A DNA stretch of 64,000 nucleotides from Sphingomonas sp. (GTDB lineage Bacteria > Pseudomonadota > Alphaproteobacteria > Sphingomonadales > Sphingomonadaceae), in contig JAYTAP010000080.1 of NCBI GenBank assembly GCA_043737475.1, positions 3,321 through 67,320 on the forward strand, written 5' to 3'. Every line of letters begins with the position of its first letter. Positions within the stretch are counted from its first letter, which is position 1. Both the position numbers and the translations under genes were made by a program. Under the pieces are notes generated by a model, which had not been told where the DNA came from, did not search any database, and saw only the letters and a program-made list of their open reading frames with translations. Of this stretch, positions 22,279 through 61,403 are shown piece by piece.

Positions 22279-22296
22279 TTCGAGGCAGGAATATAT

Positions 22297-22330: not shown

Positions 22331-22354
22331 CGTAAAACGACAGGATAATATTCT

Positions 22355-22837: not shown

Positions 22838-22870
22838 GCTAGTCACGCTAGAATTTAAGGAGTTTGCCTG

Positions 22871-35239: not shown

Positions 35240-35275
35240 GCTAAATTCCTATCTGAAATCGTTAAAGGCGCGCGA

Positions 35276-46186: not shown

Positions 46187-46411
46187 TCAAAAAGCGTATA
46201 TAAAAAACGCGATCCAAAAAGCAGCGCCTAGCGAGGCTCCTGCCACCCATCCTCTAAGTGAAATGGGGCGCTGGTCAGCTGCAATTCCGGCGTGCTGTAA
46301 TTGCAACATTTCGAAATCCTCTCCGGCATCATTATCAATCAACGACACGTCGACGATGCCGCCGTCACGCACTATTTTACGATCGTGCAAATCCCTCAAC
46401 CTGATACTCAT
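46187..46411 (-). CDS. Possible small protein with C-terminal TM
   Basis: 74-aa ORF from ATG 46411 ending GWVAGASLGAAFWIAFFIYAF; lies in an AT-richer gap. Confidence 0.45.
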   Translation of the reverse strand: MSIRLRDLHDRKIVRDGGIVDVSLIDNDAGEDFEMLQLQHAGIAADQRPISLRGWVAGASLGAAFWIAFFIYAF

Positions 46412-46562
46412 CACCAAATTTGCCCAAACGTGACACAAGAGTCATCGAATTGCAACATCATAGCATATCGCCCGATGCATAGTTCAAATTACCTTGTGAA
46501 TACGTGAACAGGGATGAAGGCAGTAATTTGATATGCGATTTCGGTCGCAAAAATCGACGATC

Positions 46563-47438
46563 CTACGCGCAATGCCGGATCAAATAGGGGCGACTTACAG
46601 CGCCGGTTAATTCGACCACGCAGCTCCGGCTGGCGACGGCGCCTGACGGATATGATGCCGTGACCGAAATCGTGAAAGGACGCGCCACGCGGCTCGTTTT
46701 ATCCACAAAATCAAGTGCGGTTACCTGTCCCTGACTTTGGCGGCCGCGTATGATTTGATCGACGGCGGCGTCGCCTGCCGGATACATGACAGCAATGGCG
46801 GCCGGTGTTGCCGTCTGCAGATCGAAAGTGCCGTTACCGAAGTCAGTCGTCGCGATCAAAGCAATTTTTGTGAAAACGTCCGGCGGAAACCCGCGGACAC
46901 GGCCGAGTTCGCGCAATGTCTGCAACGGCGCATTGCGTGGGGCTAGGCCTTCCTTACGGTAAAACGCGCGTTCGGCACCACTCGGTCGTGCTTCATCATC
47001 TTCATCGATCCAGTCAAGGAACGAATCGCGTGCAACCTGAAGTGGCTCGCCGGACAATCCGGCGTATTCGAGCAGCGCCGCAAGTTGCGTTTCGTCGATA
47101 AGATTAAGCGGCACCTTTCCGCGCTCGTCGCGCACAATGATTTCAAGGCTGCCGTCATCGAAAACAAGCCGGCGTGGCGTGCCGTCGACCGGAAATGCGT
47201 TCGCCGCTTCGTTCGCCAAAAGTCCGCGCAGCGCGAGCGCGATACCTGCTTCGGCAGCAGCGCTAGCGCGTGCCGCTTCGACTTCGGCGCTGCCGGTGAC
47301 GATGACACGCCGCGTCAGGGTCAGCGCCGCCAGTGCAACAATTGCAAAAAACAATATGGCAGCAACGGCTGCAACGAGGGCGTACCCTTCTTGGGCCGCA
47401 GGACGAATGCCGACGGTCAATCTGCCGTAAAAATTCAT
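46563..47438 (-). CDS. gspK: T2SS minor pseudopilin GspK
   Basis: Prepilin-like G|YALVAAV without Glu5, RDERGKVPLN, DWID.DD, LQTLRELGRVRGF. Confidence 0.9.
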   Translation of the reverse strand: MNFYGRLTVGIRPAAQEGYALVAAVAAILFFAIVALAALTLTRRVIVTGSAEVEAARASAAAEAGIALALRGLLANEAANAFPVDGTPRRLVFDDGSLEIIVRDERGKVPLNLIDETQLAALLEYAGLSGEPLQVARDSFLDWIDEDDEARPSGAERAFYRKEGLAPRNAPLQTLRELGRVRGFPPDVFTKIALIATTDFGNGTFDLQTATPAAIAVMYPAGDAAVDQIIRGRQSQGQVTALDFVDKTSRVARPFTISVTASYPSGAVASRSCVVELTGAVSRPYLIRHCA

Positions 47439-47950
47439 TCGGCGGGCGCGTCTTGTTCGACCGCCACCATTGGCGTTGCCCCGTAAGCGATCTGGTGGCG
47501 GACGTTGTTCTTGACGAAAACCGCACCCTCGGGGCGCAGCGCGATCAGGCGCCAGCCATCGACTGCGCCGCCGATCGCGATGTTCGACACCCTACCGTTG
47601 GCGCGCCGGACAACCGCGAAGGCGCGTCCGCGAATTGTGACCGTCCCGGCGACTGAAGCCCCGCCGAGCGGCAGTGTCTGAACGCTCGGCCGCGTAGCCA
47701 ACGACTGGCGCGGCGCGAACAATGGCCGGTCGAATATCACCCGCGCGGCGCTTACGGGCGAAACGGCAGGCATGGCGAAATCGAACCGACTTGCGCCGAT
47801 GGCAAGCACCGGCGGCAAGTCGGGCTCGCGATCGGCCGAAACGAGCTGGATCGCCAGCGCGATAGCAAGCAAGCTGGCCAAGACGCCCGGCAGATACGTG
47901 CCCTCAACGCGACTGGGAAAGGATAACGGGAACTGAAATGTCAAAGCCAA
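47435..47950 (-). CDS. T2SS accessory protein, GspN/GspC-like
   Basis: One TM, RPLFAPR motif, C-terminal beta domain (GTV...AVV...GGAVDGWRL). Position between gspM and gspK. Confidence 0.65.
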   Translation of the reverse strand: MALTFQFPLSFPSRVEGTYLPGVLASLLAIALAIQLVSADREPDLPPVLAIGASRFDFAMPAVSPVSAARVIFDRPLFAPRQSLATRPSVQTLPLGGASVAGTVTIRGRAFAVVRRANGRVSNIAIGGAVDGWRLIALRPEGAVFVKNNVRHQIAYGATPMVAVEQDAPAE

Positions 47951-48470
47951 CCTCCATCAAGTCCGGGCGGCCGCTGATCACCGCCTGATCCGCAGAAATA
48001 TCGAGCGACTCGATGGCAAGATAGGGCGGTTCGTTTTCGAGGCGTGTCAGCACCGTTGTCAATTGTCCGAGGGTCATGCGCGCAGAAACCCGCGCACGAA
48101 CCGCCGCCTCGTCATCCGTCGCGTCATCGACTGCGCGGACTTCACCGCCGACGTCTTCGATCGTTTTCTGCACACGGTCCAGCAGACTGGTGAGCGCTGC
48201 TGCCTTGGTGGGAGCGGTCATAACGACGTTGCGAAGCTGCTCACGCTGTCGCTCGGCTTGCCGCCGCAGCCGCGGGATCGAGCCGATGATACGCTGGTGC
48301 TGCTGATATTGTCGGGTCAACAATGTGCGCTTTGCGGCACGGTCGCTGAAACCGGACAGGATCGGGCCAACGACGGCCAGCCAGATCAACCCAATGACCG
48401 CGACCAGAATAAGGATCGCAACGAGGCCGCGCTCGCGTGGCGAAAGGCTGCGGGTGGGTAGAAGCGCCAT
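47904..48470 (-). CDS. gspM: T2SS inner-membrane platform protein GspM
   Basis: LSPRERGL + TM + coiled coil + ferredoxin-like domain (LTRLENEPPYLAIESLDI). ATG overlaps the gspL stop. Confidence 0.85.
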   Translation of the reverse strand: MALLPTRSLSPRERGLVAILILVAVIGLIWLAVVGPILSGFSDRAAKRTLLTRQYQQHQRIIGSIPRLRRQAERQREQLRNVVMTAPTKAAALTSLLDRVQKTIEDVGGEVRAVDDATDDEAAVRARVSARMTLGQLTTVLTRLENEPPYLAIESLDISADQAVISGRPDLMEVGFDISVPVILSQSR

Positions 48471-49486
48471 CAGCGTTGCGCAATTTCGGCGACGAGGTCG
48501 AATGGCTGCCCCGTTGCGGTTTCGGCGATCGAGTCGGTCTGCGCGCTCTTGACGTTGGCAAATCCTGGAAGCTTGCGAAGCGCGCTTGCAACATCGGTAT
48601 CGCGCGAACGGTAACCGGTCAGCCGGAGCGTTGCGCCGTCCCACGCGTAGCGCTGGACCCACGCGCCGTCCGGAACGGCCTGCGTGATCGCGGCCAGAGT
48701 CGACAACGGTTCACGTTGCTGACGCTGCAGCGCAGCGCGTTGCGCGTGCGCGTTCATCGCCCGCATCCGCGCCGTAATACGCTGCGCCACAGTGACAGCC
48801 GGTCGCTGGCCATCGACAAGCGCCTGCAGCCGCTCGATATCTGCCGTGTCGCGCCAGGAAAGCATCGCAATGTTGAGAAGCGCGAGCGCGGCAACCACGG
48901 CCCACCAATTTGCGCGACCGGGTCGATGCGAACCGAGTAGCCCGCTACGCTGCATCTGCGGAAGGAAATCGAAGCGCGGATCCACGTGCTCGTCGCGCAA
49001 GACGCGCACTGCGGCGGGTATCAGGCCGGTCGCCGAGATGGCTACGGCAATTGCCGTCGCCCGCGTGATCGGCAGCGCCGCGACATCCACTGTCATCAAG
49101 CCTTCATCAGTCCGCGTGCGACGGGGGGTGGCTGAAAGCAATATCGATTCGGTCGGCATCGGGAAATAACGACCGGCGTTGAGCGCAAGCATCCGGTTCA
49201 CCTCGCTGGCCGACATCGGTGGTACCGTGACCTCGCGCACAAGAAGCTGATTTTCGTTGATGACGATGATCGCACCGTCGCTTGGCGCGCGACCAAGCGC
49301 GTCGCCTGTTGCGGCATCATGCCACACGCCATCGTCGAGGGTCAGCATTTGCCGGTTGCGCTGGCCGAAGCGCTGGAGCGACGACGGCACCAGTGCAGCA
49401 AGTTCATCGATCCACCAGTCAAACCCCCGCCGCGCTTCATGTCGCAGCGTCGTGAGATCACTGTTCAGCAGGTCGTTGAGCGTCAT
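48470..49486 (-). CDS. gspL: T2SS inner-membrane platform protein GspL (PilN-like C-terminus)
   Basis: FDWWIDELAALVP N-terminus, TM, coiled coil, VPDGAWV...LRLTGY...LPGFANV. Confidence 0.85.
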   Translation of the reverse strand: MTLNDLLNSDLTTLRHEARRGFDWWIDELAALVPSSLQRFGQRNRQMLTLDDGVWHDAATGDALGRAPSDGAIIVINENQLLVREVTVPPMSASEVNRMLALNAGRYFPMPTESILLSATPRRTRTDEGLMTVDVAALPITRATAIAVAISATGLIPAAVRVLRDEHVDPRFDFLPQMQRSGLLGSHRPGRANWWAVVAALALLNIAMLSWRDTADIERLQALVDGQRPAVTVAQRITARMRAMNAHAQRAALQRQQREPLSTLAAITQAVPDGAWVQRYAWDGATLRLTGYRSRDTDVASALRKLPGFANVKSAQTDSIAETATGQPFDLVAEIAQR

Positions 49487-50166
49487 GACGATGCTCCGCA
49501 CCGGCCGGTCAGCACATCGATCCTGCACGCGGTGTTGTCCGTCGCGCGCGGCCGGACGATCAAATCAGGCCAGACGCGTCGGTCGCCGGACCTCAGGGCG
49601 ACACGAATGCGCACAAGTGCGGGCGGCTGCGGGCGTTGGAACCAGTTGATTTGCCACGACGTGCCCGACCCGGTCTGGCGCGCGCCAAAATAATTGATCT
49701 GGAACGACTGGACGTTTTTGAGGAGTATAATTGGCTGCCACCCCTTTGAACCGGGCATCATGAAATCGTGACGGTCGTCAAGGCTGTTTGCCGTGAGCAG
49801 CGTAAGATCACCAGCGGGCGTAAGGATTATCCGGTAACGCCAGAGGCTGTCGGGCTCGTTGCGCGCGAGCGGAACGGATTGGAAAGTGAACGCACTTTGA
49901 TCGCCAACAGCATCCACGATCGCGACTGCGCTGTCGGGATCGACGACCGGCCGCAATTGTTCGATCCGGTCGCGCAACACGCGCTGTGCCGCGATGACGC
50001 TTTCGTCGGCTTCGAATTGCCCTGCACTGCGCTGACCGAACAGGCTGGTGGTGCGAAGGCCATTGAGCAACATAGCGGCAACCATGCCAAGTAATGCGAG
50101 GCTGACCAGCATTTCGACGAGCGTGAAGCCGCGATCGCGGCGGCAAGCGGCCGGGGGGGTGATCAC
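49483..50166 (-). CDS. gspJ: T2SS minor pseudopilin GspJ
   Basis: RG|FTLVEMLVSL; C-terminal W...PALVRIRV...WPDL. Confidence 0.88.
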   Translation of the reverse strand: MITPPAACRRDRGFTLVEMLVSLALLGMVAAMLLNGLRTTSLFGQRSAGQFEADESVIAAQRVLRDRIEQLRPVVDPDSAVAIVDAVGDQSAFTFQSVPLARNEPDSLWRYRIILTPAGDLTLLTANSLDDRHDFMMPGSKGWQPIILLKNVQSFQINYFGARQTGSGTSWQINWFQRPQPPALVRIRVALRSGDRRVWPDLIVRPRATDNTACRIDVLTGRCGASS

Positions 50167-50168
50167 AA

Positions 50169-50546
50169 TCAGCGCCCGAGTCTGAGCGAGCGCAGTCGCA
50201 GCACGGGGCGGTTGGTGTCAGCGCGTTCGACCGTGACGGTGATAAGGTTGAGCGCCGGTGCCGTTCCGCTGCGCGATAAATACGGTTGCACGCTGACTCG
50301 CCAGCGTAGCGACCCGGCAATGCCTGCCTGCCGCTCGTTGCCCGTCGCATTTGCACCGATTGCGCCGTCGAGTGCCGATTTCGCAACCAGGACTGCCATC
50401 CGGCGATCGATCATCGTCTGGGTCGTGCGCGCGTTGCTTGCCAACGTCTGAAAGGTGACGCCCATGATCGTGGCAATGATTGCCAGCGCGATCAACGTTT
50501 CGATCAGGCCGAAACCGGCCTCATAATGGCGACGGTCACGGGTCAT
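50169..50546 (-). CDS. gspI: T2SS minor pseudopilin GspI
   Basis: AG|FGLIETLIALAI; 125 aa from ATG 50546. Confidence 0.85.
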   Translation of the reverse strand: MTRDRRHYEAGFGLIETLIALAIIATIMGVTFQTLASNARTTQTMIDRRMAVLVAKSALDGAIGANATGNERQAGIAGSLRWRVSVQPYLSRSGTAPALNLITVTVERADTNRPVLRLRSLRLGR

Positions 50547-50956
50547 GCCCAGCGCGACGTGACGACGCCGGTTTGCGGATCGATTGTCACGCTGAAACGA
50601 CGCGAGCGCGACTTCATCGCAAAGATACCGCCGCTCGATGTTCCGTCGCGAAAGAAGCGAAGCGCGGCCGGTTGTTCGATATCGATATCCACGGGCAAAG
50701 CACTGCGCGTCAATGCCAACCCGGTGCGCGGATCGGCTTTCACGAATGGTGCCAGCCTGACGGTCCGGTTCTCGCGGATTGCTGTCGCCTGCGCCTGGCG
50801 TATTGCCAGCTCGACTTGCACCGCTGCCGTGTTGAATGCGCGAGAGCTGATGGACTTGTCGATTGCAGGAAAGCCGATGGCCGCAATCAATCCCGCCGCC
50901 GCGATAACGACAAGCATTTCGAGAAGGGTAAACCCGTTGGCGAATGGCTTTTTCAC
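50543..50956 (-). CDS. gspH: T2SS minor pseudopilin GspH
   Basis: NG|FTLLEMLVVI; FFRDGTSSGG...DPQTGVV typical of GspH/FimT. Confidence 0.85.
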   Translation of the reverse strand: MKKPFANGFTLLEMLVVIAAAGLIAAIGFPAIDKSISSRAFNTAAVQVELAIRQAQATAIRENRTVRLAPFVKADPRTGLALTRSALPVDIDIEQPAALRFFRDGTSSGGIFAMKSRSRRFSVTIDPQTGVVTSRWA

Positions 50957-52164
50957 TGCGCGATCGCCAGGTCATTAAAGCCGAGAATGGCAGACATGAT
51001 CGCCGCGATAATTCCCGCGACGGCGGCGCCGAGGATGACCGTGATCAGCGGCGTCAGGATGGCAACAACGCGCGTCAGCCGAACCTTCACGTCGCGATCG
51101 AGGACATCGCCGAGTCGGCTGAGCATCATGCCAAGCTGCGACGATTCCTCGCCGGTGCGCACGAAGCCGATCGCAATATCGGGCATGATCCGGGCCGCAG
51201 CAAGCGGCGCTGCAAGTCCATCACCTTCACGGATGCCGTCGGCGATCTTCGACATCGCGGCGTTGATATGGCTATTGCGGATCGTGCGCTGCGCCAGTGT
51301 GACGGCCACGGGCAGCGAGACCTGCCCTTCGACAAGCGCACCGAGGGTGCGCGCAAACCGCGCCGTATCGAGACGCTGGACGAGGGCCCCGAGCTGCGGA
51401 ACGCGAAGAACGAACTGGTCAAGGCCCAAGCGCACGGCGGGTCGCATAAGCATGAAGCGCGCCGCAATGCCCGTGACGATCAACCCGAAAAACACGAGTA
51501 GGCCATTCGCGCGCAATGCGCTGCTTGCCCAGAGCACCCATTGCGACGCAGCGGGCAGCTGCGCGGCGTTCTTTCCCATCAGTGATTCGAATTGCGGCAC
51601 GACGACGAGAAGCATCAGCAAGATCACGCCGACAGCAATGACAAGCAGCGCGATCGGATAAATCAGCGACGTGATGACGAGCCGCCGAAGCTCGGCCGCA
51701 CGCTCGAGCATTTCGGCAAGGCGCGTCAAGGCATCGGGCAACGTGCCGCTTGCTTCGCCGGCTTCGGTCATGGCGACCGCCGTCGGACTGACGAGATCGG
51801 TTGCCTGCGCAAACGCGCCAGACAAAGGCTGCCCTTCGCGCACCGCGAGCAGCAGCGGGGCAAAGCGCTCGGCGAGTTTCTGGGGCTCGATATTGCCGAT
51901 TGCCAGCCCCAGCGCGCGGTCGAGCGGGAGTCCGGCTTTCAAAAGCACCGCAAGTTCGCCGATCAGGAGCGCGACGGCGGCATTCGCGGCACCGCTCGGC
52001 TGCGTCCTGCGTGTCTTTGCTGTCTCACGCACGGGCTGGACATCGACGAGTATACCACCCGTCGAACGGACCTGATCGACCGCCTGAGCCAGGTTATTGG
52101 CGGTGATCGATCCGCGCCGCGACGAACCATCCGGCATTATGGTTCGGTATTGAAATGCGGTCAC
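50953..52164 (-). CDS. gspF: T2SS platform protein GspF
   Basis: FQYR start after SD GAGGA; LLKAGLPLDRAL, GEASGTL, LIYP, GEESSQL, LTPLIT. Confidence 0.93.
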   Translation of the reverse strand: MTAFQYRTIMPDGSSRRGSITANNLAQAVDQVRSTGGILVDVQPVRETAKTRRTQPSGAANAAVALLIGELAVLLKAGLPLDRALGLAIGNIEPQKLAERFAPLLLAVREGQPLSGAFAQATDLVSPTAVAMTEAGEASGTLPDALTRLAEMLERAAELRRLVITSLIYPIALLVIAVGVILLMLLVVVPQFESLMGKNAAQLPAASQWVLWASSALRANGLLVFFGLIVTGIAARFMLMRPAVRLGLDQFVLRVPQLGALVQRLDTARFARTLGALVEGQVSLPVAVTLAQRTIRNSHINAAMSKIADGIREGDGLAAPLAAARIMPDIAIGFVRTGEESSQLGMMLSRLGDVLDRDVKVRLTRVVAILTPLITVILGAAVAGIIAAIMSAILGFNDLAIAQ

Positions 52165-52169
52165 GACCG

Positions 52170-53903
52170 TCAATCCTCGCTCACGACGCGGAGCACTTCC
52201 TCGACGGCGGTAACGCCTTCGACCGCGCGGCGCAGGCCGTCGTGGAGCAGCGAACGCATCGCCTTCCGGCCCGCCGCCGCTGCGATCGCGCGCGTGTCCT
52301 GCCGCGCAAGGATCAACGCCGCAATCTCTTGATCGACAATCAGAAGCTCGAAAATCGCCATGCGTCCGGCATAGCCGGTGTTGCTGCACTGCGGACAGCC
52401 GACCGGATGCCAGACATGCTCGGGCACAGCGATCCCCGCCTTCACAAATATTGGAACAAGCGCGTCCTCGGTCGGCCGTTCTTCGCGGCATGCCGGGCAC
52501 AAGCGGCGGACGAGCCGTTGCGCGACCACGGCAGTGAGGACCGAGCTCAGCAGCAACGGCTCGATCCCCATGTCGAGCAGGCGCGTTACTGCGCCGGGCG
52601 CCGTATTGGTGTGCAGCGTCGACAGGATCATGTGGCCGGTCAGCGCCGCCTGCACTGCAATCTCGGCGGTTTCGGTGTCGCGAATTTCGCCGACCATCAT
52701 GACGTCCGGATCCTGGCGCAGGAACGAGCGCAGCGCTGCGCCGAACGTGAAGCCGATGCCCGGATTGACTTGCGTCTGGACAACGCCTGGCAAGCGGTAC
52801 TCGATCGGGTCCTCGACCGTCAGTAATTTGCGCTGGCGCTGGTTGAGTTCGGCAAGTGCTGCGTAAAGTGTCGTCGTTTTGCCGCTGCCGGTCGGGCCGG
52901 TCACGAGGACAATACCATGGGGCGTGTGTATTGCGGTGCGCAGCTGCGCTGTGAGTGCGTCGGAGAATCCGAGTGTCGCAAAATCGAGCGCAAGCTTCGA
53001 GCGATCGAGGATGCGCATGACGACGCTTTCGCCGTGGATCGACGGCGCGGTCGCCACGCGCAGATCGATTTCATGTCCGCGCACCGCGAGGCGTAACCGC
53101 CCATCTTGCGGCAAGCGGCGTTCGGCGATGTTCAGCGCGGCCATGATTTTGATGCGAGAAACGATCGATGCGCGCATCGCGGCCGGAAGCGGTGGCATGT
53201 CGCGCAGAACGCCGTCAACGCGGAAGCGGATTGCCAAGCTGTCATCGGTCGGCTCGACATGAATGTCCGACGCGCGCGCGTCGGTCGCCATCGCAATCAT
53301 TCGATTGACCGCACGGATTACGGGCGCATCGCTGAGAAGGTCCTTCAAACGCTCGAGGTCTTCGCCTTCGACGTCGGGTTCGCTTTCGGCCTCGGGCACG
53401 TCACTGCGGTAAAGCCGGTCGATGGCCGCATCAATGTCGCTGCCGCGGCCGATGACGAACGCAATCGGTCTGTCGAACAGGAAGGCCATCGATTTTTCGA
53501 GGAATGGATCGAACGGGTTGACGACGGCGACCCGAGCGAACGCGCCGTCGAACGCGACCGGAACACAGCGATTGTCGCGCAGGAACGCAAGCGAGGGCTC
53601 GACCCCGCCGACTGCGGTGAGCGGATACTGATCCTGCGGACAAAACGGCAGGCCGGTGGCAGCAATAATTGCCTCGGCGAGGCACTGTTCGGTGATAAGA
53701 CCAAGCCGTGTGAGGACGGCGTCAAGGCGCTCGCCGCTGCCGTGTTGGACAACGAGGGCGCGCTTGAATGCTTCGTCGGTCAGGATTGCCCGCGCGCGGA
53801 ACAGCGCTTCAAGCGACGCATAATGTGCGCGCAACTCGGGTCCGGCGTTCAGGCCGTCACTGCTTTCATCGCGCGCTCGACCAAAGCCGTCGAAACTATC
53901 CAC
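52170..53903 (-). CDS. gspE: T2SS traffic ATPase GspE with N-terminal N1 domain
   Basis: ASDIHVEP, AERRLPQDGR, GPTGSGKTT, TVEDPIE, LRQDPDVMMVGEIRD, STLHTN, CPAC/CPQC. Confidence 0.97.
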   Translation of the reverse strand: MDSFDGFGRARDESSDGLNAGPELRAHYASLEALFRARAILTDEAFKRALVVQHGSGERLDAVLTRLGLITEQCLAEAIIAATGLPFCPQDQYPLTAVGGVEPSLAFLRDNRCVPVAFDGAFARVAVVNPFDPFLEKSMAFLFDRPIAFVIGRGSDIDAAIDRLYRSDVPEAESEPDVEGEDLERLKDLLSDAPVIRAVNRMIAMATDARASDIHVEPTDDSLAIRFRVDGVLRDMPPLPAAMRASIVSRIKIMAALNIAERRLPQDGRLRLAVRGHEIDLRVATAPSIHGESVVMRILDRSKLALDFATLGFSDALTAQLRTAIHTPHGIVLVTGPTGSGKTTTLYAALAELNQRQRKLLTVEDPIEYRLPGVVQTQVNPGIGFTFGAALRSFLRQDPDVMMVGEIRDTETAEIAVQAALTGHMILSTLHTNTAPGAVTRLLDMGIEPLLLSSVLTAVVAQRLVRRLCPACREERPTEDALVPIFVKAGIAVPEHVWHPVGCPQCSNTGYAGRMAIFELLIVDQEIAALILARQDTRAIAAAAGRKAMRSLLHDGLRRAVEGVTAVEEVLRVVSED

Positions 53904-54003
53904 TGATCAGTCCTTTATCGGCGACGGTGTATGGCAACGGGTCGAACTTTACAGTGGTCGTCGCGCGAAGCCAGCACGCCCGTCCTTCGATGCAAAACGA
54001 CGA

Positions 54004-54537
54004 TCATCGCGTACCGAGCGCATAGCTGCATGGACCCTGATAGACGGTTTTCAGGTTCATTGCGGCGACGTCTGTCGCGGTCGTCATGAATAGATTGGCC
54101 GTCCGCGTCGTTTCGTCGATTTGATTGATTACCATGAAATGGGCCAGCGGGCGCTTGATCGTCTGCGTCAGTTCGACACGTTCCGGCCATAAATCGACCA
54201 CGCGTTCAAAACCCGCCGGAACGCCGCGGCGCAGCCCGGAGGGATCGGAAAGCACCTGTGTCGTCGGGTTGGCCGCCGTCGTCGGATCGGCGGCGTCGGG
54301 TGCCGGTGCGCCGCGCGAAATTGCCGCCGGGACGAACACCGTAAAGTTGTGCGACCCCTCATATTTGATTTCGTCCATCCGCTGCTCTTTCGTTGGATCG
54401 AGATTGAGCGCGAGACCGAGTTTGCAGCGGAATGTTCGTGACGGGATCGTCATGCCCGCATCAGGCACCGCAGCCGTTCCACAACCAGCGATGCCAATTC
54501 CTAATGCCAAAATGATCGCCAAAATCTTAGATGACAT
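54004..54537 (-). CDS. Hypothetical lipoprotein heading the gsp operon
   Basis: MSSKILAIILALGIGIAGC lipobox; two further Cys; same strand as and upstream of gspE. Confidence 0.75.
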   Translation of the reverse strand: MSSKILAIILALGIGIAGCGTAAVPDAGMTIPSRTFRCKLGLALNLDPTKEQRMDEIKYEGSHNFTVFVPAAISRGAPAPDAADPTTAANPTTQVLSDPSGLRRGVPAGFERVVDLWPERVELTQTIKRPLAHFMVINQIDETTRTANLFMTTATDVAAMNLKTVYQGPCSYALGTR

Positions 54538-54752
54538 AAAAGTAACCAATGAGTCCCGATCGATTTTTGGCCGCTAAGGCACCTGTGTGACTCTGGCATG
54601 ACCAGCAACCGCCACCATCATGTCACCGTGACGTAAAGAGTCGCAAAAACTAAACAATTGGGATGCACATGTCGGCGTCTGGCAGTCGCGCACATCCAGA
54701 AACTCTCAGGGGCTCCGCACTTTAGATGCTTAATGTTTCTCGCCCCTCGGCC

Positions 54753-56474
54753 ATGCCTTCGTTGCGTGCCGTGCTCCCCATCGCACTGATGGTCGGTGGC
54801 GCTCCGGTGCTGGCGCAGCAGGGCGATGTCCCGGTTCCGGGAGCGTCTGCCGTTCCGCAACCCGTGGAACCGATGCCGGGAACGATCCCGCGGGAAATTT
54901 CCCCCAGCCCGCCCGTACAGCCCGCTGCTGTCGTTGCCCCTCAGTCTTTCCCGATTCGGGCGATCGATGTCGTCGGCGTTACGCAATTGACAGCAAGCGA
55001 CATCGAAAAAGCCATCTATCCGTTCGTCGGCCCCGACAAATCTTCGGCCGACGTGGAAAGCGCGCGCAAAGCCATCCAGGACGTTTATGCCGCGCGGGGT
55101 TACGAGGCGGTGATTGTCGAAACGCCGCCGCAGCTCGATACGGTCTTCGCGCAAGGCCTTGTCCAGCTTAAGGTCAACGAAGTCCCCGTGGGCACAATTA
55201 CGGTATCCAACGCCAAATTCCATTCGGAAAAAGCAGTGGTAAGGAGCCTTCCCTCGCTCGCGCCGGGCAAGCCGGTCGATTTCAAGGCGCTCCAGGCCGA
55301 CATCAACACGGCCAATCGTTATCCCGATCGCTCACTCACCCCGCGTTTCAAGGCGGGTGTCATTCCGGGCACGATCGACGCCGAAGTCAGAGTCCGCGAC
55401 CAGTTTCCGCTGCATGCCACGTTCGAGCTTAACAACGACAACAGCCCCAATACCAAGCCGCTGCGCCTTTCGGGCACGGCGCGCTACACCGATTTGTGGC
55501 GTGCGGGGCATACACTGACAACAGGCTTCGTTCTTTCGCCGCAACGCCAGCGCGACACTTCGGTTGTGTCGGCATCATATTCGGTGCCGTTATTCAACAC
55601 GCCATGGACGCTGGTCACTTATGGCTACAGATCGAACAGCGATGTTGCGGCGCTTGGGGGCACGAACGTGCTCGGCAACGGCTATCAGATCGGCGGCCGC
55701 GCAATCTACAGGCTGCCGACAACCAAGGCCTATCACGGGTTCAGCGTCGGGCTGGATTACAAGAATTTCAAACAGGACATCATCGTCAAGGGCACCTTGG
55801 TCAGCAAATCGCCGATCGAGTATGTCCCGCTCGTGCTCGGCTACAGCTTTTCGCAAGCGACTGAATCGGAGCAGCTCGAAGTCAACCTCAATAGCACGCT
55901 GGGTCTGCGGATCCTGAAGCGCGAGCGCTGCCGCAACCCGAACATCATCCAGGAATGCGATGTCATCGAGGGCTTTCGTGCCAAGGACGTCGATAGCATC
56001 GAGAATTTCGGGCACATCAATCTCGACCTGACCTACACCGCTGCATTCAAGGGTGACTGGGTCGCCTTGACGCGATTTTCCGGGCAATATGCCGACGCGC
56101 ATCTCGTCACCAACGAGCAATTTGCGCTTGGTGGTGTCTCGACTGTTCGCGGCTATTTCCAGTCGGAAATCGTCGGTGATAACGGCTTTGTCGGATCGGT
56201 CGAATTCCGAACGCCTTCGTTTGCGACATATCTGGGTTCGTTCGTCGACGAGTTGCGCTTTTTCAGTTTCGCGGAATCAGGGTTCACCCGGGTGATCAGC
56301 CCGCTGCTCGACCAGCGGGCCGAGTTCAAGATCGGCAGTGTCGGCGGCGGCGCGCGACTGAAGCTGTTCAACCGGGTGTCGGGCGAGATTGTCGTCGGCG
56401 TGCCGGTCGTTTCGACCACCAATGTGCGCAAGGGCGATCCGCGGATCACTTTCAGCGCCAAAAGCGAATTCTAG
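54753..56474 (+). CDS. TpsB (ShlB/FhaC/HecB family) transporter
   Basis: Signal peptide; POTRA (FPIRAIDVVG...YAARGY), LNNDNS, VRGY..SEIVGDNG (VRGY motif), C-terminal Phe. Alternative start 54726. Confidence 0.9.
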   Translation: MPSLRAVLPIALMVGGAPVLAQQGDVPVPGASAVPQPVEPMPGTIPREISPSPPVQPAAVVAPQSFPIRAIDVVGVTQLTASDIEKAIYPFVGPDKSSADVESARKAIQDVYAARGYEAVIVETPPQLDTVFAQGLVQLKVNEVPVGTITVSNAKFHSEKAVVRSLPSLAPGKPVDFKALQADINTANRYPDRSLTPRFKAGVIPGTIDAEVRVRDQFPLHATFELNNDNSPNTKPLRLSGTARYTDLWRAGHTLTTGFVLSPQRQRDTSVVSASYSVPLFNTPWTLVTYGYRSNSDVAALGGTNVLGNGYQIGGRAIYRLPTTKAYHGFSVGLDYKNFKQDIIVKGTLVSKSPIEYVPLVLGYSFSQATESEQLEVNLNSTLGLRILKRERCRNPNIIQECDVIEGFRAKDVDSIENFGHINLDLTYTAAFKGDWVALTRFSGQYADAHLVTNEQFALGGVSTVRGYFQSEIVGDNGFVGSVEFRTPSFATYLGSFVDELRFFSFAESGFTRVISPLLDQRAEFKIGSVGGGARLKLFNRVSGEIVVGVPVVSTTNVRKGDPRITFSAKSEF

Positions 56475-56501
56475 AATATGCGCATGATCAGGGGACAAGC
56501 C

Positions 56502-58262
56502 ATGACCAAGTTCTTCGTTTCACTGTTGCTATCGTTGATCGCGATAACGACCCCGGCGCATGCGTGGTGGAACGATGACTGGACCTATCGCAAGGCAGTG
56601 ACCGTCGACACGTCGCCGTCGGGCGTGAGCATGAGTGGCACGGTCGGGCGCACGGTCGTCCTGATAAGACTGACCGACGGCAACTTCTCCTTCGCTCAGG
56701 CAGCAAAAAACGGTGCCGACCTGCGCATTGTCGACAGCGACGACAAGACCCCCTTGCCCTATCATATCGAGAGCTATGCCGAAGGCATGGCGAGCGTCTG
56801 GGTCTCGCTTCCTGCACTCAACGGTGGTGAGAAAAAGCAGCTCTGGCTTTATTTCGGCAATGCAAATGCCCCCGTCGGCGACGATATGAAGGGCAGTTTC
56901 GACCCCGACTATCTCGCGGTTTATCACTTCAGTAGCGCGGCGGGGCAACCTGCCGGCGACGCGACAGCGAACGCCAACAATTCGGCAAGTCCGGTGGTCA
57001 GCGTCAACGACGCATCGGTGATCGGACGCGGGGCGCGTTTCCCCGGGCAGGGCGCACTGACGATCAGTGATTCGCCATCGCTGGCGATGCCTGCGGGTGC
57101 GCAATTCACATTCTCGACCTGGGTAAAGCCTGACCAGCTGGCGGGTGAGGCAGCACTTTTCGCACGTGGCCCGATGATCATCGGGATGAATAACGGCGCG
57201 CCGTTCGTGGCGCTCGGCGGCGCACGGACGCAAGCGGCGACTGCGCTCAAGCAGGGGCAGTGGAGTCATCTTGCGGCTGTCGCCGACGGCGAGACAGTCC
57301 GCCTTTATGTCAATGGCATCGAAGCCGCTGCCGCATCAGTCGCGCTGCCTGCCCTGACGGGTCCGATCAACATCGGTGGCGCAGAAGGTCGGCCCTTTAC
57401 GGGCGAAATGGACGAAGTGCGCCTGTCGAAGGTTGCGCGGCCCGCCAACATGCTGCTGGCAATGGCAAATGCCGAAGGCCCGGGCACGAAGTTGGTCGGC
57501 GTCGCCGAGAGTGCCGAGGAAGCGGGCGGCGACGGCGGCGTGCTTTGGTTCATCATCAGCAAAATCCATACCCTCGACATCGGTATCATCGCGCTTTGCA
57601 TGTTGCTGCTCGCGGGCGCGATCGGGGTGATGGTTTCCAAGATCACCTATCTGAACGCTGCCGATCGCGGCAACAAAGTGTTCATGAAGCGCTTTCGCGA
57701 GATGCATGAGGAGCTTGTACCGGTTGACCAGATCGCGGGCATCACACCGCAGGAAGTGACCTATATCAACAAGTCGCCGCTCGGTCGTCTTTACAAGGAA
57801 GGCATCGATGAACTGGCGATTCGTAAGCGCACGCATGGTGAACGGGCATTGTCGGGTGAGGCCGTCGAAGCGATGCGCGCTGCAGTCGATGCCGTTGCGG
57901 TGACCGAAAACCAGAAACTCGACAGCTTGATGGTCGTCCTGACGATCGCGATTTCGGGCGGGCCGTTCATCGGACTGCTCGGCACCGTTATCGGCGTGAT
58001 GAGCACATTTGGCGGCGTGGCGATGGCAGGCGACGTGAACGTCAACGCGATCGCACCGGGCATCGCGGCGGCGCTGCTCGCGACGATTGCCGGACTCGCC
58101 GCAGCTATCCCGGCGCTGTTTGGGTACAACTACTTGAATGGCCGGATCAGCAAGCTCGCCGACGACATGCGCGTGTTCGTAGACCGGCTGATCACGCGCC
58201 TTGCGGAGGTTCAGGCCGACGCCGCGCATACCCCGCCCCCCTTCAAGATAGCTGCAGAATAA
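56502..58262 (+). CDS. DUF2341-LamG-ExbB fusion protein
   Basis: Signal peptide; WWNDDWTYRK and DLRIVD..DKTPLPYHIE (DUF2341); STWVKP, WSHLA, LYVNG, GEMDEVRLS (LamG); GPFIGLLGTVIGVM...GIAAALLAT (ExbB). Confidence 0.9.
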   Translation: MTKFFVSLLLSLIAITTPAHAWWNDDWTYRKAVTVDTSPSGVSMSGTVGRTVVLIRLTDGNFSFAQAAKNGADLRIVDSDDKTPLPYHIESYAEGMASVWVSLPALNGGEKKQLWLYFGNANAPVGDDMKGSFDPDYLAVYHFSSAAGQPAGDATANANNSASPVVSVNDASVIGRGARFPGQGALTISDSPSLAMPAGAQFTFSTWVKPDQLAGEAALFARGPMIIGMNNGAPFVALGGARTQAATALKQGQWSHLAAVADGETVRLYVNGIEAAAASVALPALTGPINIGGAEGRPFTGEMDEVRLSKVARPANMLLAMANAEGPGTKLVGVAESAEEAGGDGGVLWFIISKIHTLDIGIIALCMLLLAGAIGVMVSKITYLNAADRGNKVFMKRFREMHEELVPVDQIAGITPQEVTYINKSPLGRLYKEGIDELAIRKRTHGERALSGEAVEAMRAAVDAVAVTENQKLDSLMVVLTIAISGGPFIGLLGTVIGVMSTFGGVAMAGDVNVNAIAPGIAAALLATIAGLAAAIPALFGYNYLNGRISKLADDMRVFVDRLITRLAEVQADAAHTPPPFKIAAE

Positions 58263-58287
58263 TGGCCAAGAACGAGGAGCGCATGAC

Positions 58288-58695
58288 ATGAAAGCCGGTG
58301 GTGGCCGCAAGGCCTATGACGACATCAACATCACGCCGATGCTCGATCTTGCCTATGTGTTGCTGGTCATCTTCATCCTGATGGCGACGGCAAGCGTCCA
58401 GGGCATCAAGGTCGATCTGCCCAAGGCGTCGGCTGCGCAGAGCCTGGTCCAGCCCAAGACAGTCGCGATTACGGTCAACAGCGAAGGGCAGATCTTCATG
58501 GATGCCTTTCCCGTGACGCTTCCCGAACTCGAAGCGCAACTTCGCAGCAAGAAGGCCTCGAACCCCGATCTGCCGATCGTGCTCAAGGGCGACCAGACGG
58601 CGCAATACGGCAAGATCACCGAAGTGCTTGACCTGTGCCGCCGTCTCGACCTGAGCAAGGTCGGGCTGGTCACCGGCAAGCCGACTGCGGCCTAG
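58288..58695 (+). CDS. exbD: ExbD of the secretion island
   Basis: DINITPMLDLAYVLLVIF, VDLPKA, IVLKGD. Confidence 0.92.
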   Translation: MKAGGGRKAYDDINITPMLDLAYVLLVIFILMATASVQGIKVDLPKASAAQSLVQPKTVAITVNSEGQIFMDAFPVTLPELEAQLRSKKASNPDLPIVLKGDQTAQYGKITEVLDLCRRLDLSKVGLVTGKPTAA

Positions 58696-58717
58696 CGCAA
58701 AGAGCGGGGACCGACAC

Positions 58718-59434
58718 GTGGCCGACCAAGCAGCCTTCAAGGCCCCGGGCGAAAGCGACGCAAAGCGCTGGGTAACCTATGTCATCGGCGGCTTGCTCAT
58801 CCTGGGGATCCTTTGGTTTGTTTATCGCCAGTTGACGGTGCCCGTGACGATCAAGGCAAAAGACGAGCGGACGATTACGGCCGCGCCTGATTTGCTGCCA
58901 CCGCCACCGCCACCGCCACCCCCGCCGCCGCCACCCGAGCCGCAGGAAAAGCCGCCCGAGCCAACCGAAACGCCGACGCCGTCGCCCGAGCCTGCCGCCA
59001 AGCCCGATACCCCTGCACCGATGCAGATGGATGCGGCACCCTCGGCCGGGAGTGACAGTTTCGGATTGTCGGCGGGCAAAGGCGGCGGGATGGGCGGCAC
59101 GGGCTCTGCCGGCACATGCCTCAAACCGCCCTGCGGCGGCGGTGGTGGCGGCGGGTTCAGCGATGCAATGTATCGCGGCAATCTGGGGCGCGAGCTTCAG
59201 GATCGCATTCTCGACAACGAGAAAGTCAACCGGCTCGCTTTCAAAGCCGTCTTTGCCATTTCGGTTGGCAGCGCAGGGCAAGTGACGAGTGCCGAACTGC
59301 TGAGCTCGACCGGCGACGCCAAACGTGACCAGATCTTGCTGGCGATCTTGAAAAGCACGCGTGGCCTCGAAGCACCACCGTCGCAAGTGAGATTTCCCCA
59401 GCGCGTGACCGTGACCGGTCGCCGATCCTTCTAA
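58718..59434 (+). CDS. Atypical TonB-like protein
   Basis: N-terminal TM, 13-Pro run, Gly-rich linker, C-terminal TonB_C-like domain (LLSSTGD..RD). Confidence 0.8.
   Translation: MADQAAFKAPGESDAKRWVTYVIGGLLILGILWFVYRQLTVPVTIKAKDERTITAAPDLLPPPPPPPPPPPPPEPQEKPPEPTETPTPSPEPAAKPDTPAPMQMDAAPSAGSDSFGLSAGKGGGMGGTGSAGTCLKPPCGGGGGGGFSDAMYRGNLGRELQDRILDNEKVNRLAFKAVFAISVGSAGQVTSAELLSSTGDAKRDQILLAILKSTRGLEAPPSQVRFPQRVTVTGRRSF
58898..58936 (+). repeat. Poly-proline codon tract
   Basis: cca ccg cca ccg cca ccg cca ccc ccg ccg ccg cca ccc = 13 consecutive Pro codons. Confidence 0.85.
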
Positions 59435-59487
59435 ATGCAAAGATGAACACAGGCGCCATGGCGCGGAAAAGCAAAGAGGAATTGATC

Positions 59488-61254
59488 ATGACTGCCGCAA
59501 CAACAATGCAAAGGATGCGCCTTCTGACGTGCAGTATGCTCATCAGCGTGGCTTCACTGAGCGTTGCACACGCACAGGATGCAGCGCCTGCCGCGGCACC
59601 GTCGGAAAGCTCCATGGTCAATCTTGTCCGCCAGCTCGTGAAGCAGGGGGTGTTAAAGAAGGATGCTGGCGATGCACTCATGGCGCAGGCCGAGGCCGAA
59701 GCTGTGCAGGCGCGCGCGGCTGCTCCGACCCAGACTGCAAATGCTGCGTTGCCCGATGCTGCCCCTGGCGCGATCCGCGTGCCCTATATCCCCGAAACCG
59801 TGCGCAACCAGATCCGCGACGAAATCCGCACCGAAGTTCTGGCGCAGGCCAAGACCGAGGGCTGGGCAAGCCCGGGTCAGACCGCACCAGAATGGACAAA
59901 ACGCATCAGCCTGTTCGGTGATTTCCGCTTCCGCTCGCAATCCGACCTCTATTCGAAAGCGAATTCGCCGTTCATCTTCGATTTCGCGCGCATCAATGCG
60001 GCCGGACCTTTCCCGATCACCACCGCGCTTTCGATTCCCTATGTCAATTCGACCGTCGATCGGGTCAACCGCTTGCGGATCCGCGGCCGGATTGGACTGA
60101 AGGCTGAACTCGGCGGTGGTGTCAGTGTCGTAACGGCTGTCGCGACAGGAAACGACAACAGTCCGATTTCTTTCAACCAGACGCTTGGTGGCGGATTGGC
60201 CAAACGCAATATCTGGCTCGACCAAGCCTATCTGAGACTTGCACCAAGTGATCTCTTCAAAGCGAGCTTCGGGCGCTTTCCCAACCCGTTTGTGTCGACC
60301 GACCTCTTGTTCGACGACGATGTCCGATTCGACGGCGTGGCAGCGGAATTCAACGGTGGCCAGTTTATCAGTGACGACTTCAAGCTCGCAATTCGCGGCG
60401 GTGCTTTCCCGCTCGATTTCAATTCGGGCGATTTCCCGAATACCCAGCAGGTCAAGCGCAAGGCGCCGGTGAAGTATCTTTATTCGGGACAGATTACGGT
60501 CGGTGCAGCAATCATGGATAATGTCGAGGTGAGCGCCAGCGCAGCCTATCATAGTTTCCAGGGTGTACAGGGTCAGTTTTCAGAACCTTGTGTGCTATAC
60601 CTTGGCGCGACCGAATGTTCGACCGACTCCTTCCGGGCTTTTTCACTGCGTAAGGGCAACACGGTATTCGGCCTGCGGAACATTGTCATCAATCCAGATG
60701 CGACCCGTGCACTCCCCGCCGACCAGAATCAATTGCTCGGACTTGCTTTCGATTATGACATTTTAGACATCAATGCATCGGTACGTGTTCCGATCAGCGA
60801 GAAAACTTTCGTGAAAGTGAGCGGCAATTATCTGCGCAATCTTTCTTTCAAACGAACTGACATTTGTCGCTACGGCGTCGCGGGCGAACCATTCAACAAC
60901 GGCGGCGCAGGGGGCACAACGCTATGTGCAACAGTAAATCCGCGCGCATTTGCCGGCGGTCCATCAGGCTACCAAGCAAAAGCGTCGATCGGCTATGACG
61001 ATGTCGCCGCCCGCGGGCAATGGAACGCTCAGCTTGGCTATCGCTATGTCGAGTCGGACGCGGTGCTGGACAGCCTGACTGACAGTAATTTCCATCTGGG
61101 CGGCACCAACGCCAAAGGGTATTTCGTCGGCGGCAAATATGGCATTTTCGACAAGGTCACAATTGGCGGTCGCTGGTTGAGTGCAAACCAGATCTCCGGA
61201 CTTGAGCCGTTGGCAATCGACGTTCTGCAGATCGACCTCGAAGCGAAATTCTGA
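59488..61254 (+). CDS. Putative porin-type outer-membrane beta-barrel with N-terminal helical extension
   Basis: SD GAGGA; signal peptide; GDFRFR, RLRIRGR, DDDVRFDG, DSNFHLGGTNAKG; ends LQIDLEAKF. Confidence 0.85.
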   Translation: MTAATTMQRMRLLTCSMLISVASLSVAHAQDAAPAAAPSESSMVNLVRQLVKQGVLKKDAGDALMAQAEAEAVQARAAAPTQTANAALPDAAPGAIRVPYIPETVRNQIRDEIRTEVLAQAKTEGWASPGQTAPEWTKRISLFGDFRFRSQSDLYSKANSPFIFDFARINAAGPFPITTALSIPYVNSTVDRVNRLRIRGRIGLKAELGGGVSVVTAVATGNDNSPISFNQTLGGGLAKRNIWLDQAYLRLAPSDLFKASFGRFPNPFVSTDLLFDDDVRFDGVAAEFNGGQFISDDFKLAIRGGAFPLDFNSGDFPNTQQVKRKAPVKYLYSGQITVGAAIMDNVEVSASAAYHSFQGVQGQFSEPCVLYLGATECSTDSFRAFSLRKGNTVFGLRNIVINPDATRALPADQNQLLGLAFDYDILDINASVRVPISEKTFVKVSGNYLRNLSFKRTDICRYGVAGEPFNNGGAGGTTLCATVNPRAFAGGPSGYQAKASIGYDDVAARGQWNAQLGYRYVESDAVLDSLTDSNFHLGGTNAKGYFVGGKYGIFDKVTIGGRWLSANQISGLEPLAIDVLQIDLEAKF

Positions 61255-61403
61255 AGGGTCGGCAGCGTCCCGTTTCCGGACGCGCTAAGGAGAACATTGG
61301 CCAGTGACCAATTAGTTTCAAAAGACTGCAACATAACGCTCCTACCCCAAGAATTAACCGAATCGTCATGTTTCGGATCCTCAAATTCTGGGCGGGCGAC
61401 CGT

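What the first reader, a model, noticed from the sequence alone, without database searches (positions are those of the whole stretch)
46563..53903. T2SS operon without secretin or major pseudopilin
Seen: nine overlapping gsp genes; gspF runs straight into gspH, where gspG normally sits. None of the four pilins shows the GspG P.DPWG motif, and no secretin, PDZ-type GspC or prepilin peptidase is in the window. Known: GspD and GspG are essential in canonical T2SS. Inference: either they lie beyond tpsA or elsewhere, or the outer-membrane exit is provided by TpsB or the porin.
Basis: partly seen in the sequence, partly recalled or inferred. Interest (0 to 1): 0.65.

Follow-up and report, generated by a model that had tools for sequence, protein, structure and literature searches.

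The report
Split but canonical type II secretion system
The operon really lacks the secretin and major pseudopilin genes, but they sit together as a two-gene unit about 40 kb further along the chromosome, so this is an ordinary type II secretion system encoded in two pieces.

Summary
Window 53903..46563 (minus strand) carries nine tightly packed genes, gspE-F-H-I-J-L-M-X-K. There is no gspG, secretin or prepilin peptidase anywhere in the 64 kb.

The genes are relocated, not lost.
- Distant relatives (Sphingomonadales, Caulobacterales) have E-F-G-H-I-J-L-M-X-D-K.
- One monophyletic Sphingomonadaceae clade, including the window, lacks exactly G and D. Start/stop overlaps at both junctions are intact.
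- In basal clade members a gspG-gspD pair lies 3 kb beyond gspK.
- In three MAGs closest to the window it lies on another contig, in the order lectin, RTX protein, gspG, gspD.
- On a 102.6 kb scaffold 95.5% identical to the window, gspG-gspD lie about 51 kb from gspE. That is about 41 kb past the window end, on the tpsA side.
- In the four metagenomes holding the window, one gspGD contig matches the operon's depth in every run: 84.9/58.7/81.7/12.9 against 84/57/81/13.

That GspG and GspD pass NCBI's equivalog cut-offs. All nine operon genes are under purifying selection. The unnamed 171-aa protein X folds as a PDZ-less GspC HR domain, the secretin-binding part.

The idea that TpsB or the porin provides the exit is unnecessary. 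Split T2SS loci are already known. Interest is low.

The parts
52170..53903 (-). gspE, the secretion ATPase (577 aa), with an N-terminal MshEN-type domain
   Evidence: Pfam T2SSE 460 bits and MshEN 47.6 bits. TIGR02533 GspE is the top hit at 590 bits, E 2.9e-177, below the 630-bit equivalog cut-off. dN/dS against L003 is 0.06.
50953..52164 (-). gspF, the inner-membrane platform (403 aa)
   Evidence: Pfam T2SSF, two stretches. TIGR02120 GspF is the top hit at 287 bits. The start follows the gene call on L001. dN/dS 0.07.
50543..50956 (-). gspH-like minor pseudopilin (137 aa). It occupies the position that gspG holds in relatives.
   Evidence: GFTLLE prepilin motif. Pfam N_methyl 21.7 bits passes its 21.2 cut-off; GspH 20.1 bits falls just below its 21 cut-off. 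Weak XpsH/GspH hits. 33% identity to the GspH of L002, which follows gspG there. GTGA overlap with the gspF stop.
50169..50546 (-). gspI-like minor pseudopilin (125 aa)
   Evidence: N_methyl. XpsI E 2.9e-11 and TIGR01707 gspI E 1.1e-7.
49483..50166 (-). gspJ-like minor pseudopilin (227 aa)
   Evidence: GFTLVE motif. N_methyl 38 bits. PRK08808 GspJ E 3.5e-10 over residues 9-213.
48470..49486 (-). gspL (338 aa): cytoplasmic PilM/EpsL-like domain, transmembrane helix, periplasmic PilN/EpsL-like domain
   Evidence: Pfam PilN at residues 265-325. AF2 model pLDDT 78.5. Foldseek matches PilM, cyto-EpsL 1yf5, GspL in complex with GspE 4pht and PulL 5tkw at E 7e-6 to 2e-4. The C-terminus matches periplasmic EpsL 2w7v with TMt 0.62.
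47904..48470 (-). gspM (188 aa)
   Evidence: NF040576 T2SS_GspM_XpsM 98 bits, above the 60-bit cut-off. Pfam T2SSM_b and T2SSM.
47435..47950 (-). Minimal gspC (169-171 aa): N-terminal transmembrane helix, linker and a C-terminal HR/PilP-type beta domain, with no PDZ domain. In relatives it sits directly before gspD.
   Evidence: No Pfam or NCBIfam hit. AF2 pLDDT is above 90 for residues about 100-155. The top 11 Foldseek PDB hits are all PilP or GspC HR domains. They include 3oss_C (GspC in complex with GspD, TMt 0.75, rmsd 2.3), 6hcg_e (PulC HR, TMt 0.69) and 7oio LspC. The gene is followed by gspD in L002 and other canonical loci.
46563..47438 (-). gspK, minor pseudopilin (291 aa). Its start overlaps the stop of gspC by ATGA, where gspD sits in relatives.
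   Evidence: Pfam T2SSK_1st 46.3 bits, above the 26.2 cut-off. NF037980 GspK E 2.8e-17. Junction sequence.

Best explanation
This is a canonical type II secretion system encoded in two transcription units.

The window holds gspE-F-H-I-J-L-M-C-K. These are the ATPase, the platform, the four tip pseudopilins, the L/M assembly proteins, and a PDZ-less GspC. The major pseudopilin gspG and the secretin gspD were removed together from this operon in the common ancestor of one Sphingomonadaceae clade. They now form a separate gspG-gspD pair next to an RTX-repeat protein gene. In the window's lineage the pair lies about 50 kb from gspE, beyond the TpsB-TpsA cluster and outside the 64-kb window.

The machine is expected to work as usual; this part is inferred from family knowledge:
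- GspE, F, L and M drive assembly of a GspG pseudopilus primed by the H-I-J-K tip.
- The GspC HR domain docks the inner-membrane platform to the N0 domain of GspD.
- GspD carries a lipobox, so it is probably a self-piloting liposecretin, and it forms the outer-membrane exit.
- The prepilin peptidase is encoded elsewhere.

Shown here: gene content, relocation, linkage, orthology, purifying selection and the folds of GspC and GspL.
Inferred: the protein interactions, secretion activity, and any benefit of expressing G and D separately.
For: (1) Ancestral order. Canonical relatives have E-F-G-H-I-J-L-M-X-D-K. The window clade lacks exactly G and D and keeps the 4-nt start/stop overlaps. The clade is monophyletic on a tree of E+F+J+L+K.

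(2) Relocated pair nearby. L004 and L007 carry gspG-gspD 3 kb beyond gspK on the opposite strand.

(3) Same-MAG contigs. JANODH010000390 goes with L003, JBGSMP010000175 with L010, and JANPIQ010000349 with L006. Each carries lectin, RTX, gspG, gspD.

(4) Same scaffold. ERZ28573671 scaffold_142 carries the operon at about 29.2-36.5 kb (L001, 95.5% DNA identity to the window) and gspG-gspD at 87,968-90,437.

(5) Co-abundance in runs X1-X4. The gspGD contig has depth 84.9/58.7/81.7/12.9. The window operon has 78-84/57-59/75-81/12.7-13.4. Other gspGD contigs in the same runs have 23.7/17.1/22.7/0 and 15/10.9/14.4/0. The exact window protein and this GspD share the samples ERZ27280993, SRR22198321 and DRR331401.

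(6) Congruent divergence. GspD is 92.7% identical to the L003-MAG copy and 93.9% to the L010-MAG copy. GspE and GspF are 93% and 91% identical between the window and L003.

(7) Identity of G and D. GspG scores 142 bits against the 88.85 cut-off of TIGR01710. GspD scores 397 bits against the 351 cut-off of TIGR02517. GspG has the GFTLLE, DPWKNPY and SLGSDN..GG..DIGNW motifs.

(8) Function retained. dN/dS is 0.06-0.26 for all nine genes. A GspC HR fold is retained.
Against: - The window's own genome is not closed. Linkage for the window strain rests on co-abundance, shared samples and a 95.5%-identical scaffold, not on a contig that joins both loci.
- MAG membership of the separate contigs depends on binning.
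- No prepilin peptidase was located.
- E, F, H, I, J and K score below NCBI's equivalog cut-offs, so the system is divergent.
- No expression or secretion data exist.
Confidence: 0.9

Rival explanations
1. A secretin-less and major-pseudopilin-less T2SS-like machine that uses the neighbouring TpsB channel or the Porin_5 protein as its outer-membrane exit.
For: TpsB, a DUF2341-LamG-ExbB fusion, ExbD, Porin_5 and TpsA lie directly upstream of gspE. A TPS cluster is found next to this T2SS family in several arrangements across Sphingomonadales and in one Caulobacterales MAG.
Against: gspG and gspD exist in the same lineage and on the same scaffold. They co-vary in depth with the operon. The operon keeps a GspC HR domain, which in solved complexes binds the secretin. 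Canonical relatives that have G and D inside the operon also have the TPS neighbours, so the association does not depend on loss of the secretin.
Confidence: 0.02
2. A decaying remnant of a T2SS operon that lost two essential genes and is on its way to pseudogenisation.
For: Two essential genes are missing from the operon.
Against: All nine ORFs are intact in the window, L001, L003, L005 and L006, down to about 50% protein identity. dN/dS is 0.06-0.34. The junctions keep translational-coupling overlaps. G and D persist elsewhere and diverge in step with the operon.
Confidence: 0.02
3. The operon borrows GspG and GspD from a second, complete T2SS or from a type IV pilus system in the same genome, rather than from a dedicated relocated pair.
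For: The rest of the genome could not be read. Cross-use of parts is known for prepilin peptidases (PMC4713064).
Against: Every gspG-gspD pair found in this clade stands alone, flanked by RTX, lectin, CoA-transferase and cys genes, with no other gsp genes nearby. In L004 and L007 the pair sits 3 kb from gspK. The identity of its GspD to in-operon GspD of canonical relatives (56-58%) is in line with the other components.
Confidence: 0.04

Closest known systems
Canonical alphaproteobacterial T2SS operon of the same family (for example Novosphingobium sp. OZ245852, loci L002/L013; Sphingorhabdus profundilacus, L014)
   Same: It has the same eleven components and the same order for the nine shared genes (E-F-[G]-H-I-J-L-M-C-[D]-K). 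Protein identity is 33-65%. The PDZ-less GspC and the lipobox secretin are the same. The neighbours are the same: TpsA/Asp-protease/PBP_like_2 upstream and Hydrolase_2/Poly_export/Bac_transf downstream.
   Different: G and D sit inside the operon there. In the window clade they are excised and joined as a separate pair.
Acinetobacter T2SS encoded in five separate loci (Harding et al. 2016, PMC4713064). Legionella lsp loci are a second example, from my own knowledge.
   Same: It is a functional T2SS whose genes are dispersed over the chromosome and which has no dedicated prepilin peptidase in the gsp clusters.
   Different: The genes are partitioned differently, and the organisms are gammaproteobacteria. 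Here there are only two pieces, one of which is exactly the major pseudopilin plus the secretin.
Xanthomonas Xps-type T2SS (xpsE-F-G-H-I-J-K-L-M-N-D; the order is from my own knowledge)
   Same: The best NCBIfam matches of I and M are the Xps models, and XpsH is the best T2SS model for H (XpsH, XpsI, GspM_XpsM). The GspC-like gene sits just before gspD near the 3' end of the operon in canonical relatives.
   Different: Here K follows D, the GspC-like protein is much shorter, and all scores are below the equivalog cut-offs.
Liposecretins such as Pseudomonas aeruginosa HxcQ (from my own knowledge)
   Same: GspD of this family has a signal peptide ending in a lipobox: LLGAGC, SIAGC or VTGC. This suggests self-piloting without a pilotin.
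   Different: Lipidation was not tested. The relation to HxcQ was not examined.

Membership tests
Type II secretion system (Gsp) | GspE-type secretion ATPase | tested here: met
   Pfam T2SSE 460 bits. TIGR02533 is the top hit, E 2.9e-177, at 590 bits, just below the 630-bit equivalog cut-off.
Type II secretion system (Gsp) | GspF polytopic platform protein | tested here: met
   Pfam T2SSF, two stretches, 149.7 bits. TIGR02120 is the top hit at 287 bits, below the 424-bit cut-off.
Type II secretion system (Gsp) | Four minor pseudopilins, GspH, I, J and K | tested here: met
   Prepilin motifs in H, I and J. GspK T2SSK_1st scores 46 bits against a 26.2 cut-off. The best NCBIfam hits are T2SS models: I to XpsI, J to PRK08808 GspJ, K to GspK; for H, XpsH/GspH rank third and fourth. 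All are below the equivalog cut-offs. Orthology to H, I, J and K of canonical operons rests on position and tblastn.
Type II secretion system (Gsp) | GspL and GspM assembly-platform proteins | tested here: met
   GspM: NF040576 scores 98 bits against a 60-bit cut-off. GspL: the AF2 model matches the cytoplasmic EpsL/GspL/PulL and PilM domains and the periplasmic EpsL domain.
Type II secretion system (Gsp) | GspC with an HR domain that couples the inner-membrane platform to the secretin | tested here: met
   This is met by fold only. The top 11 Foldseek PDB hits are PilP or GspC-HR domains, including 3oss_C, 6hcg_e and 7oio. E-values are modest (8e-3 to 5e-2) with probability 1.0. There is no sequence-family hit. 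No PDZ domain is present.
Type II secretion system (Gsp) | Major pseudopilin GspG | tested here: met
   Absent from the window. Present on the linked contigs L028-L031 and on scaffold_142 (L041). TIGR01710 scores 142 bits against an 88.85 cut-off.
Type II secretion system (Gsp) | Outer-membrane secretin GspD | tested here: met
   Absent from the window. Present next to gspG on the linked contigs. TIGR02517 scores 397 bits against a 351 cut-off. Pfam finds Secretin, Secretin_N and the N0 domain.
Type II secretion system (Gsp) | Prepilin peptidase (GspO/PilD, Peptidase_A24) | not testable with these tools
   None was found in the window (plus ORFs recognised by eye). The rest of the genome could not be read. 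Other T2SS share the type IV pilus peptidase (PMC4713064).
   gspG-gspD were found in the same MAGs, on the same scaffold and in the same samples at matching depth.

The most novel reading that the evidence does not exclude
This T2SS family may be functionally coupled to its conserved neighbours. Those neighbours are a two-partner secretion cluster (TpsB, a DUF2341-LamG-ExbB fusion, ExbD, Porin_5, TpsA, an Asp protease and a PBP_like_2 protein), an RTX protein and polysaccharide-export genes.

The set is found together in at least three different arrangements across Sphingomonadales and in one Caulobacterales MAG. It may form one surface-adhesion or biofilm module. Moving gspG-gspD next to the RTX, lectin and polysaccharide genes might place the two high-copy parts of the machine under that module's regulation.
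Probability: 0.12. Interest if true: 0.45.

Novelty: new member of a known kind. Interest (0 to 1): 0.15.

Why it matters
It mostly removes a false lead. An operon that seems to lack the two most conspicuous T2SS parts is not a new secretin-free machine.

The practical lesson is for automated detection of secretion systems. Detectors that require co-localised G and D would miss or mis-score this Sphingomonadaceae clade.

There is a small evolutionary curiosity. Two non-adjacent genes left an operon cleanly and ended up as a pair, and other members of the family show other modular splits. The PDZ-less 170-aa GspC is a compact example of the secretin coupler and has no sequence-family model yet.

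Tried and rejected
- An exact look-up of the window's Porin_5 protein, meant to extend past the window end, found nothing on record.
I used the more distant L004 gspD-gspG at 80% likeness instead and identified the contigs by length and depth.
- A profile search of the 171-aa protein family against PDB sequences gave only a chance hit. Pfam and NCBIfam gave none. Only the fold comparison identified it.
- The promoter and terminator scan of 46200-54800 found no more sites than shuffled sequence, so transcription-unit boundaries remain inferred.
- Literature searches for a described Sphingomonas T2SS layout and for the DUF2341-ExbB fusion found nothing specific.
- I considered whether the 137-aa pilin after gspF could be a divergent major pseudopilin. 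I rejected this. It is orthologous to the GspH that follows GspG in canonical relatives, lacks the DPW and calcium-site motifs, and a true GspG exists elsewhere.
- I considered an inverted duplication of the operon followed by complementary gene loss as the origin of the G-D pair. No remnants are left to test it; the G-D spacer is 37-80 nt.
Full report
**Observation.** The minus strand of window 53903..46563 carries nine tightly packed genes:

| Gene | Coordinates | Main evidence |
|---|---|---|
| gspE | 52170-53903 | Pfam T2SSE 460 bits; TIGR02533 top hit |
| gspF | 50953-52164 | Pfam T2SSF |
| gspH-like | 50543-50956 | prepilin motif GFTLLE |
| gspI-like | 50169-50546 | prepilin motif GFGLIE |
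| gspJ-like | 49483-50166 | prepilin motif GFTLVE |
| 338-aa PilN-domain protein | 48470-49486 | Pfam PilN |
| gspM | 47904-48470 | NF040576, 98 bits against a 60-bit cut-off |
| 169-171 aa protein, no family hit | 47435-47950 | none at sequence level |
| gspK | 46563-47438 | T2SSK_1st, above cut-off |

gspF ends in the start codon of gspH (GTGA). The unnamed gene ends in the start codon of gspK (ATGA).

tblastn with GspG and GspD of a relative finds nothing in the 64 kb beyond the shared pilin N-terminus. A six-frame scan finds no DPW motif. Pfam scans of the remaining ORFs show no secretin or Peptidase_A24.

**What the relatives show.** The PilN-domain protein has only 55 relatives in the large protein collection, all Sphingomonadaceae-like. 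A scan of species-representative genomes gave 24 loci. I mapped them by tblastn.

The distant members are Novosphingobium, Sphingobium, Sphingorhabdus, Caulobacterales and Rhizomicrobium. They share the order E-F-G-H-I-J-L-M-X-D-K (also, with Pfam labels). The window, L001, L003, L004, L005, L006, L007 and L010 have E-F-H-I-J-L-M-X-K. Exactly G and D are missing. On a neighbour-joining tree of E+F+J+L+K this group is monophyletic, with L004 basal. This points to one event in a common ancestor.

**The two genes were moved, not lost.**
- In L004 and L007 a gspG-gspD pair lies about 3 kb beyond gspK on the other strand. It comes after Bac_transf, Poly_export and a cell-wall hydrolase and is followed by an RTX-repeat gene.
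- A search with the L004 secretin, followed by contig look-ups, found the module L-type lectin, RTX protein, gspG, gspD, CoA-transferase, cysQ, cysNC on separate contigs of the same MAGs that hold the window-type operon:
  - JANODH010000390 with L003
  - JBGSMP010000175 with L010
  - JANPIQ010000349 with L006
- The 90% cluster of one such GspD (P0065) has a second member, P0199, on a 102,584-nt contig. That contig is ERZ28573671 scaffold_142, the same scaffold as L001.
- On that scaffold the operon spans about 29.2-36.5 kb on the minus strand. TpsB to TpsA run from 37.4 kb onward. gspG-gspD lie at 87,968-90,437 on the plus strand.
- L001 is 95.5% identical to the window over 20.5 kb. With the offset record = window - 17,361, the window end corresponds to about 46.6 kb. 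The pair therefore sits about 41 kb past the window end, on the tpsA side. This assumes the window strain stays collinear with scaffold_142 beyond the window end, which is untested.

**Link to the window strain itself.** The operon is held at 97-100% of sampled words by five metagenome runs. I laid the contigs of four runs on the L004 gspD-gspG region. The matching contigs have lengths 5741/7400/5744/4091 and depths 84.9/58.7/81.7/12.9. Three of these lengths equal those of L029, L030 and L031, which carry P0065.

The window operon in the same runs has depths 78-84/57-59/75-81/12.7-13.4. Other gspGD contigs in those runs have quite different depths (23.7/17.1/22.7/0 and 15/10.9/14.4/0).

The window's exact 169-aa protein and P0065 occur in the same samples: ERZ27280993, SRR22198321 and DRR331401. 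L029 is 94.0% identical to the scaffold_142 copy, which parallels the 95.5% for the operon. GspD is 92.7% and 93.9% identical to the copies in the L003 and L010 MAGs, in step with GspE and GspF.

**Identity of the relocated genes.** The GspG has the motifs GFTLLE, LVDPWKNPYQ and SLGSDNAAGGSGDAKDIGNW. It scores 142 bits on TIGR01710 against a cut-off of 88.85. The GspD scores 397 bits on TIGR02517 against a cut-off of 351, and has N0, Secretin_N and Secretin domains. Its signal peptide ends in a lipobox in every family member examined. This suggests a self-piloting liposecretin.

**State of the operon.** All nine genes are intact across the clade. dN/dS is 0.06-0.26 against L003 and 0.12-0.34 against L005.

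- The 338-aa protein is GspL. Its model (pLDDT 78.5) matches PilM, cyto-EpsL, GspL bound to GspE, PulL, and the periplasmic EpsL domain.
- The 171-aa protein has a transmembrane helix, a linker, and a confident C-terminal beta domain. Its top 11 PDB matches are all PilP or GspC HR domains, including GspC bound to GspD (3oss_C, TMt 0.75) and PulC HR in the PulD complex. It is therefore a PDZ-less GspC. An operon that keeps the secretin coupler fits a machine that still uses a secretin.

**Mechanism.** The best reading is an ordinary T2SS expressed from two units, plus an unlinked prepilin peptidase. The protein interactions and secretion activity are inferred from what is known of the family, not shown here. 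Why G and D were separated is unknown. They are the two high-copy components, so separate expression is a reasonable guess.

The route of relocation is also unknown. An inverted duplication followed by complementary loss would fit the opposite orientation in L004, but it leaves no testable trace.

**Comparison with what is known.** Dispersed T2SS genes are established. Acinetobacter encodes a functional T2SS in five loci and uses the type IV pilus peptidase (PMC4713064). Legionella is similar, from my own knowledge. I found no paper on this Sphingomonadaceae layout. I rate the finding as a new member of a known kind, of low interest.

**The TpsB/porin idea.** The TPS cluster is a conserved neighbour of this T2SS family whether or not G and D are in the operon. 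It therefore cannot be a replacement for the secretin. The repeated co-location is worth a note but was not pursued to a conclusion.

Noticed in passing
window 54726-64000 (+); also L004 1-5155, L011, L014, L017, L021, L026 16098-21035: A cluster lies next to gspE: TpsB (ShlB/POTRA_2), a DUF2341-LamG-MotA/ExbB fusion (594 aa), ExbD (58288-58695), Porin_5 and TpsA (which runs off the window). Relatives with canonical operons have TpsA C-terminus, Asp protease and PBP_like_2 upstream of gspE. One Caulobacterales MAG has PBP_like_2, TpsB and ExbB-LamG downstream of gspK. The co-location is conserved in at least three arrangements, and its meaning is unknown. I found no literature on the fusion protein in this context.
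   Followed up: partly
window 54004-54549 (-): A lipoprotein gene (lipobox IAGC; 124-181 aa depending on the start) lies 100 nt upstream of gspE on the same strand. It has no Pfam or NCBIfam hit. It is present only in the loci where TpsB abuts gspE (L001, L003, L005, L006; 57-99% identity). Its role is unknown. A pilotin-like function is conceivable but untested.
   Followed up: partly
window 53400-53800 (-), GspE residues about 34-170: GspE has an N-terminal MshEN-type domain (Pfam 47.6 bits). It also has a sub-threshold match to the MshE c-di-GMP-binding motif at residues 39-79 (26 bits against a 38-bit cut-off). This hints at c-di-GMP control of the ATPase.
   Followed up: no
L029 104-2188; L041 5919-9223; L004 18690-20687; L007 10085-12145: A 692-697 aa RTX-repeat (HemolysinCabind) protein with no N-terminal signal peptide always precedes gspG-gspD in the split clade. 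An L-type lectin with a PEP-CTERM tail and polysaccharide synthesis/export genes (Wzz, Polysacc_synt, sulfotransferase) lie upstream of it. In some canonical relatives (L011, L015) the RTX gene directly follows gspK.
   Followed up: partly
L019 6668-14106; L020 6662-14103; L023 738-15133: The same T2SS family shows other modular splits. Two Caulobacteraceae MAGs have E-F-G-L-M-X-D with only about 60 nt between G and L, and no H, I, J or K hit within the 10-kb flanks. L023 has about 4.9 kb inserted between G and I.
   Followed up: no
window 20802-23272 (+): A separate, ordinary TonB, ExbB, ExbD, ExbD set is present (TonB_C, MotA_ExbB; tblastn ExbD hits at 22385-22813 and 22877-23272). It is unrelated to the ExbB-LamG fusion beside TpsB.
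   Followed up: no
window 34622-36880 (-): A PEP-CTERM-tailed protein (205 aa) lies next to a secreted alkaline phosphatase (534 aa). The PEP-CTERM tail implies an exosortase system in this genome, in line with the PEP-CTERM lectin beside gspG-gspD.
   Followed up: no
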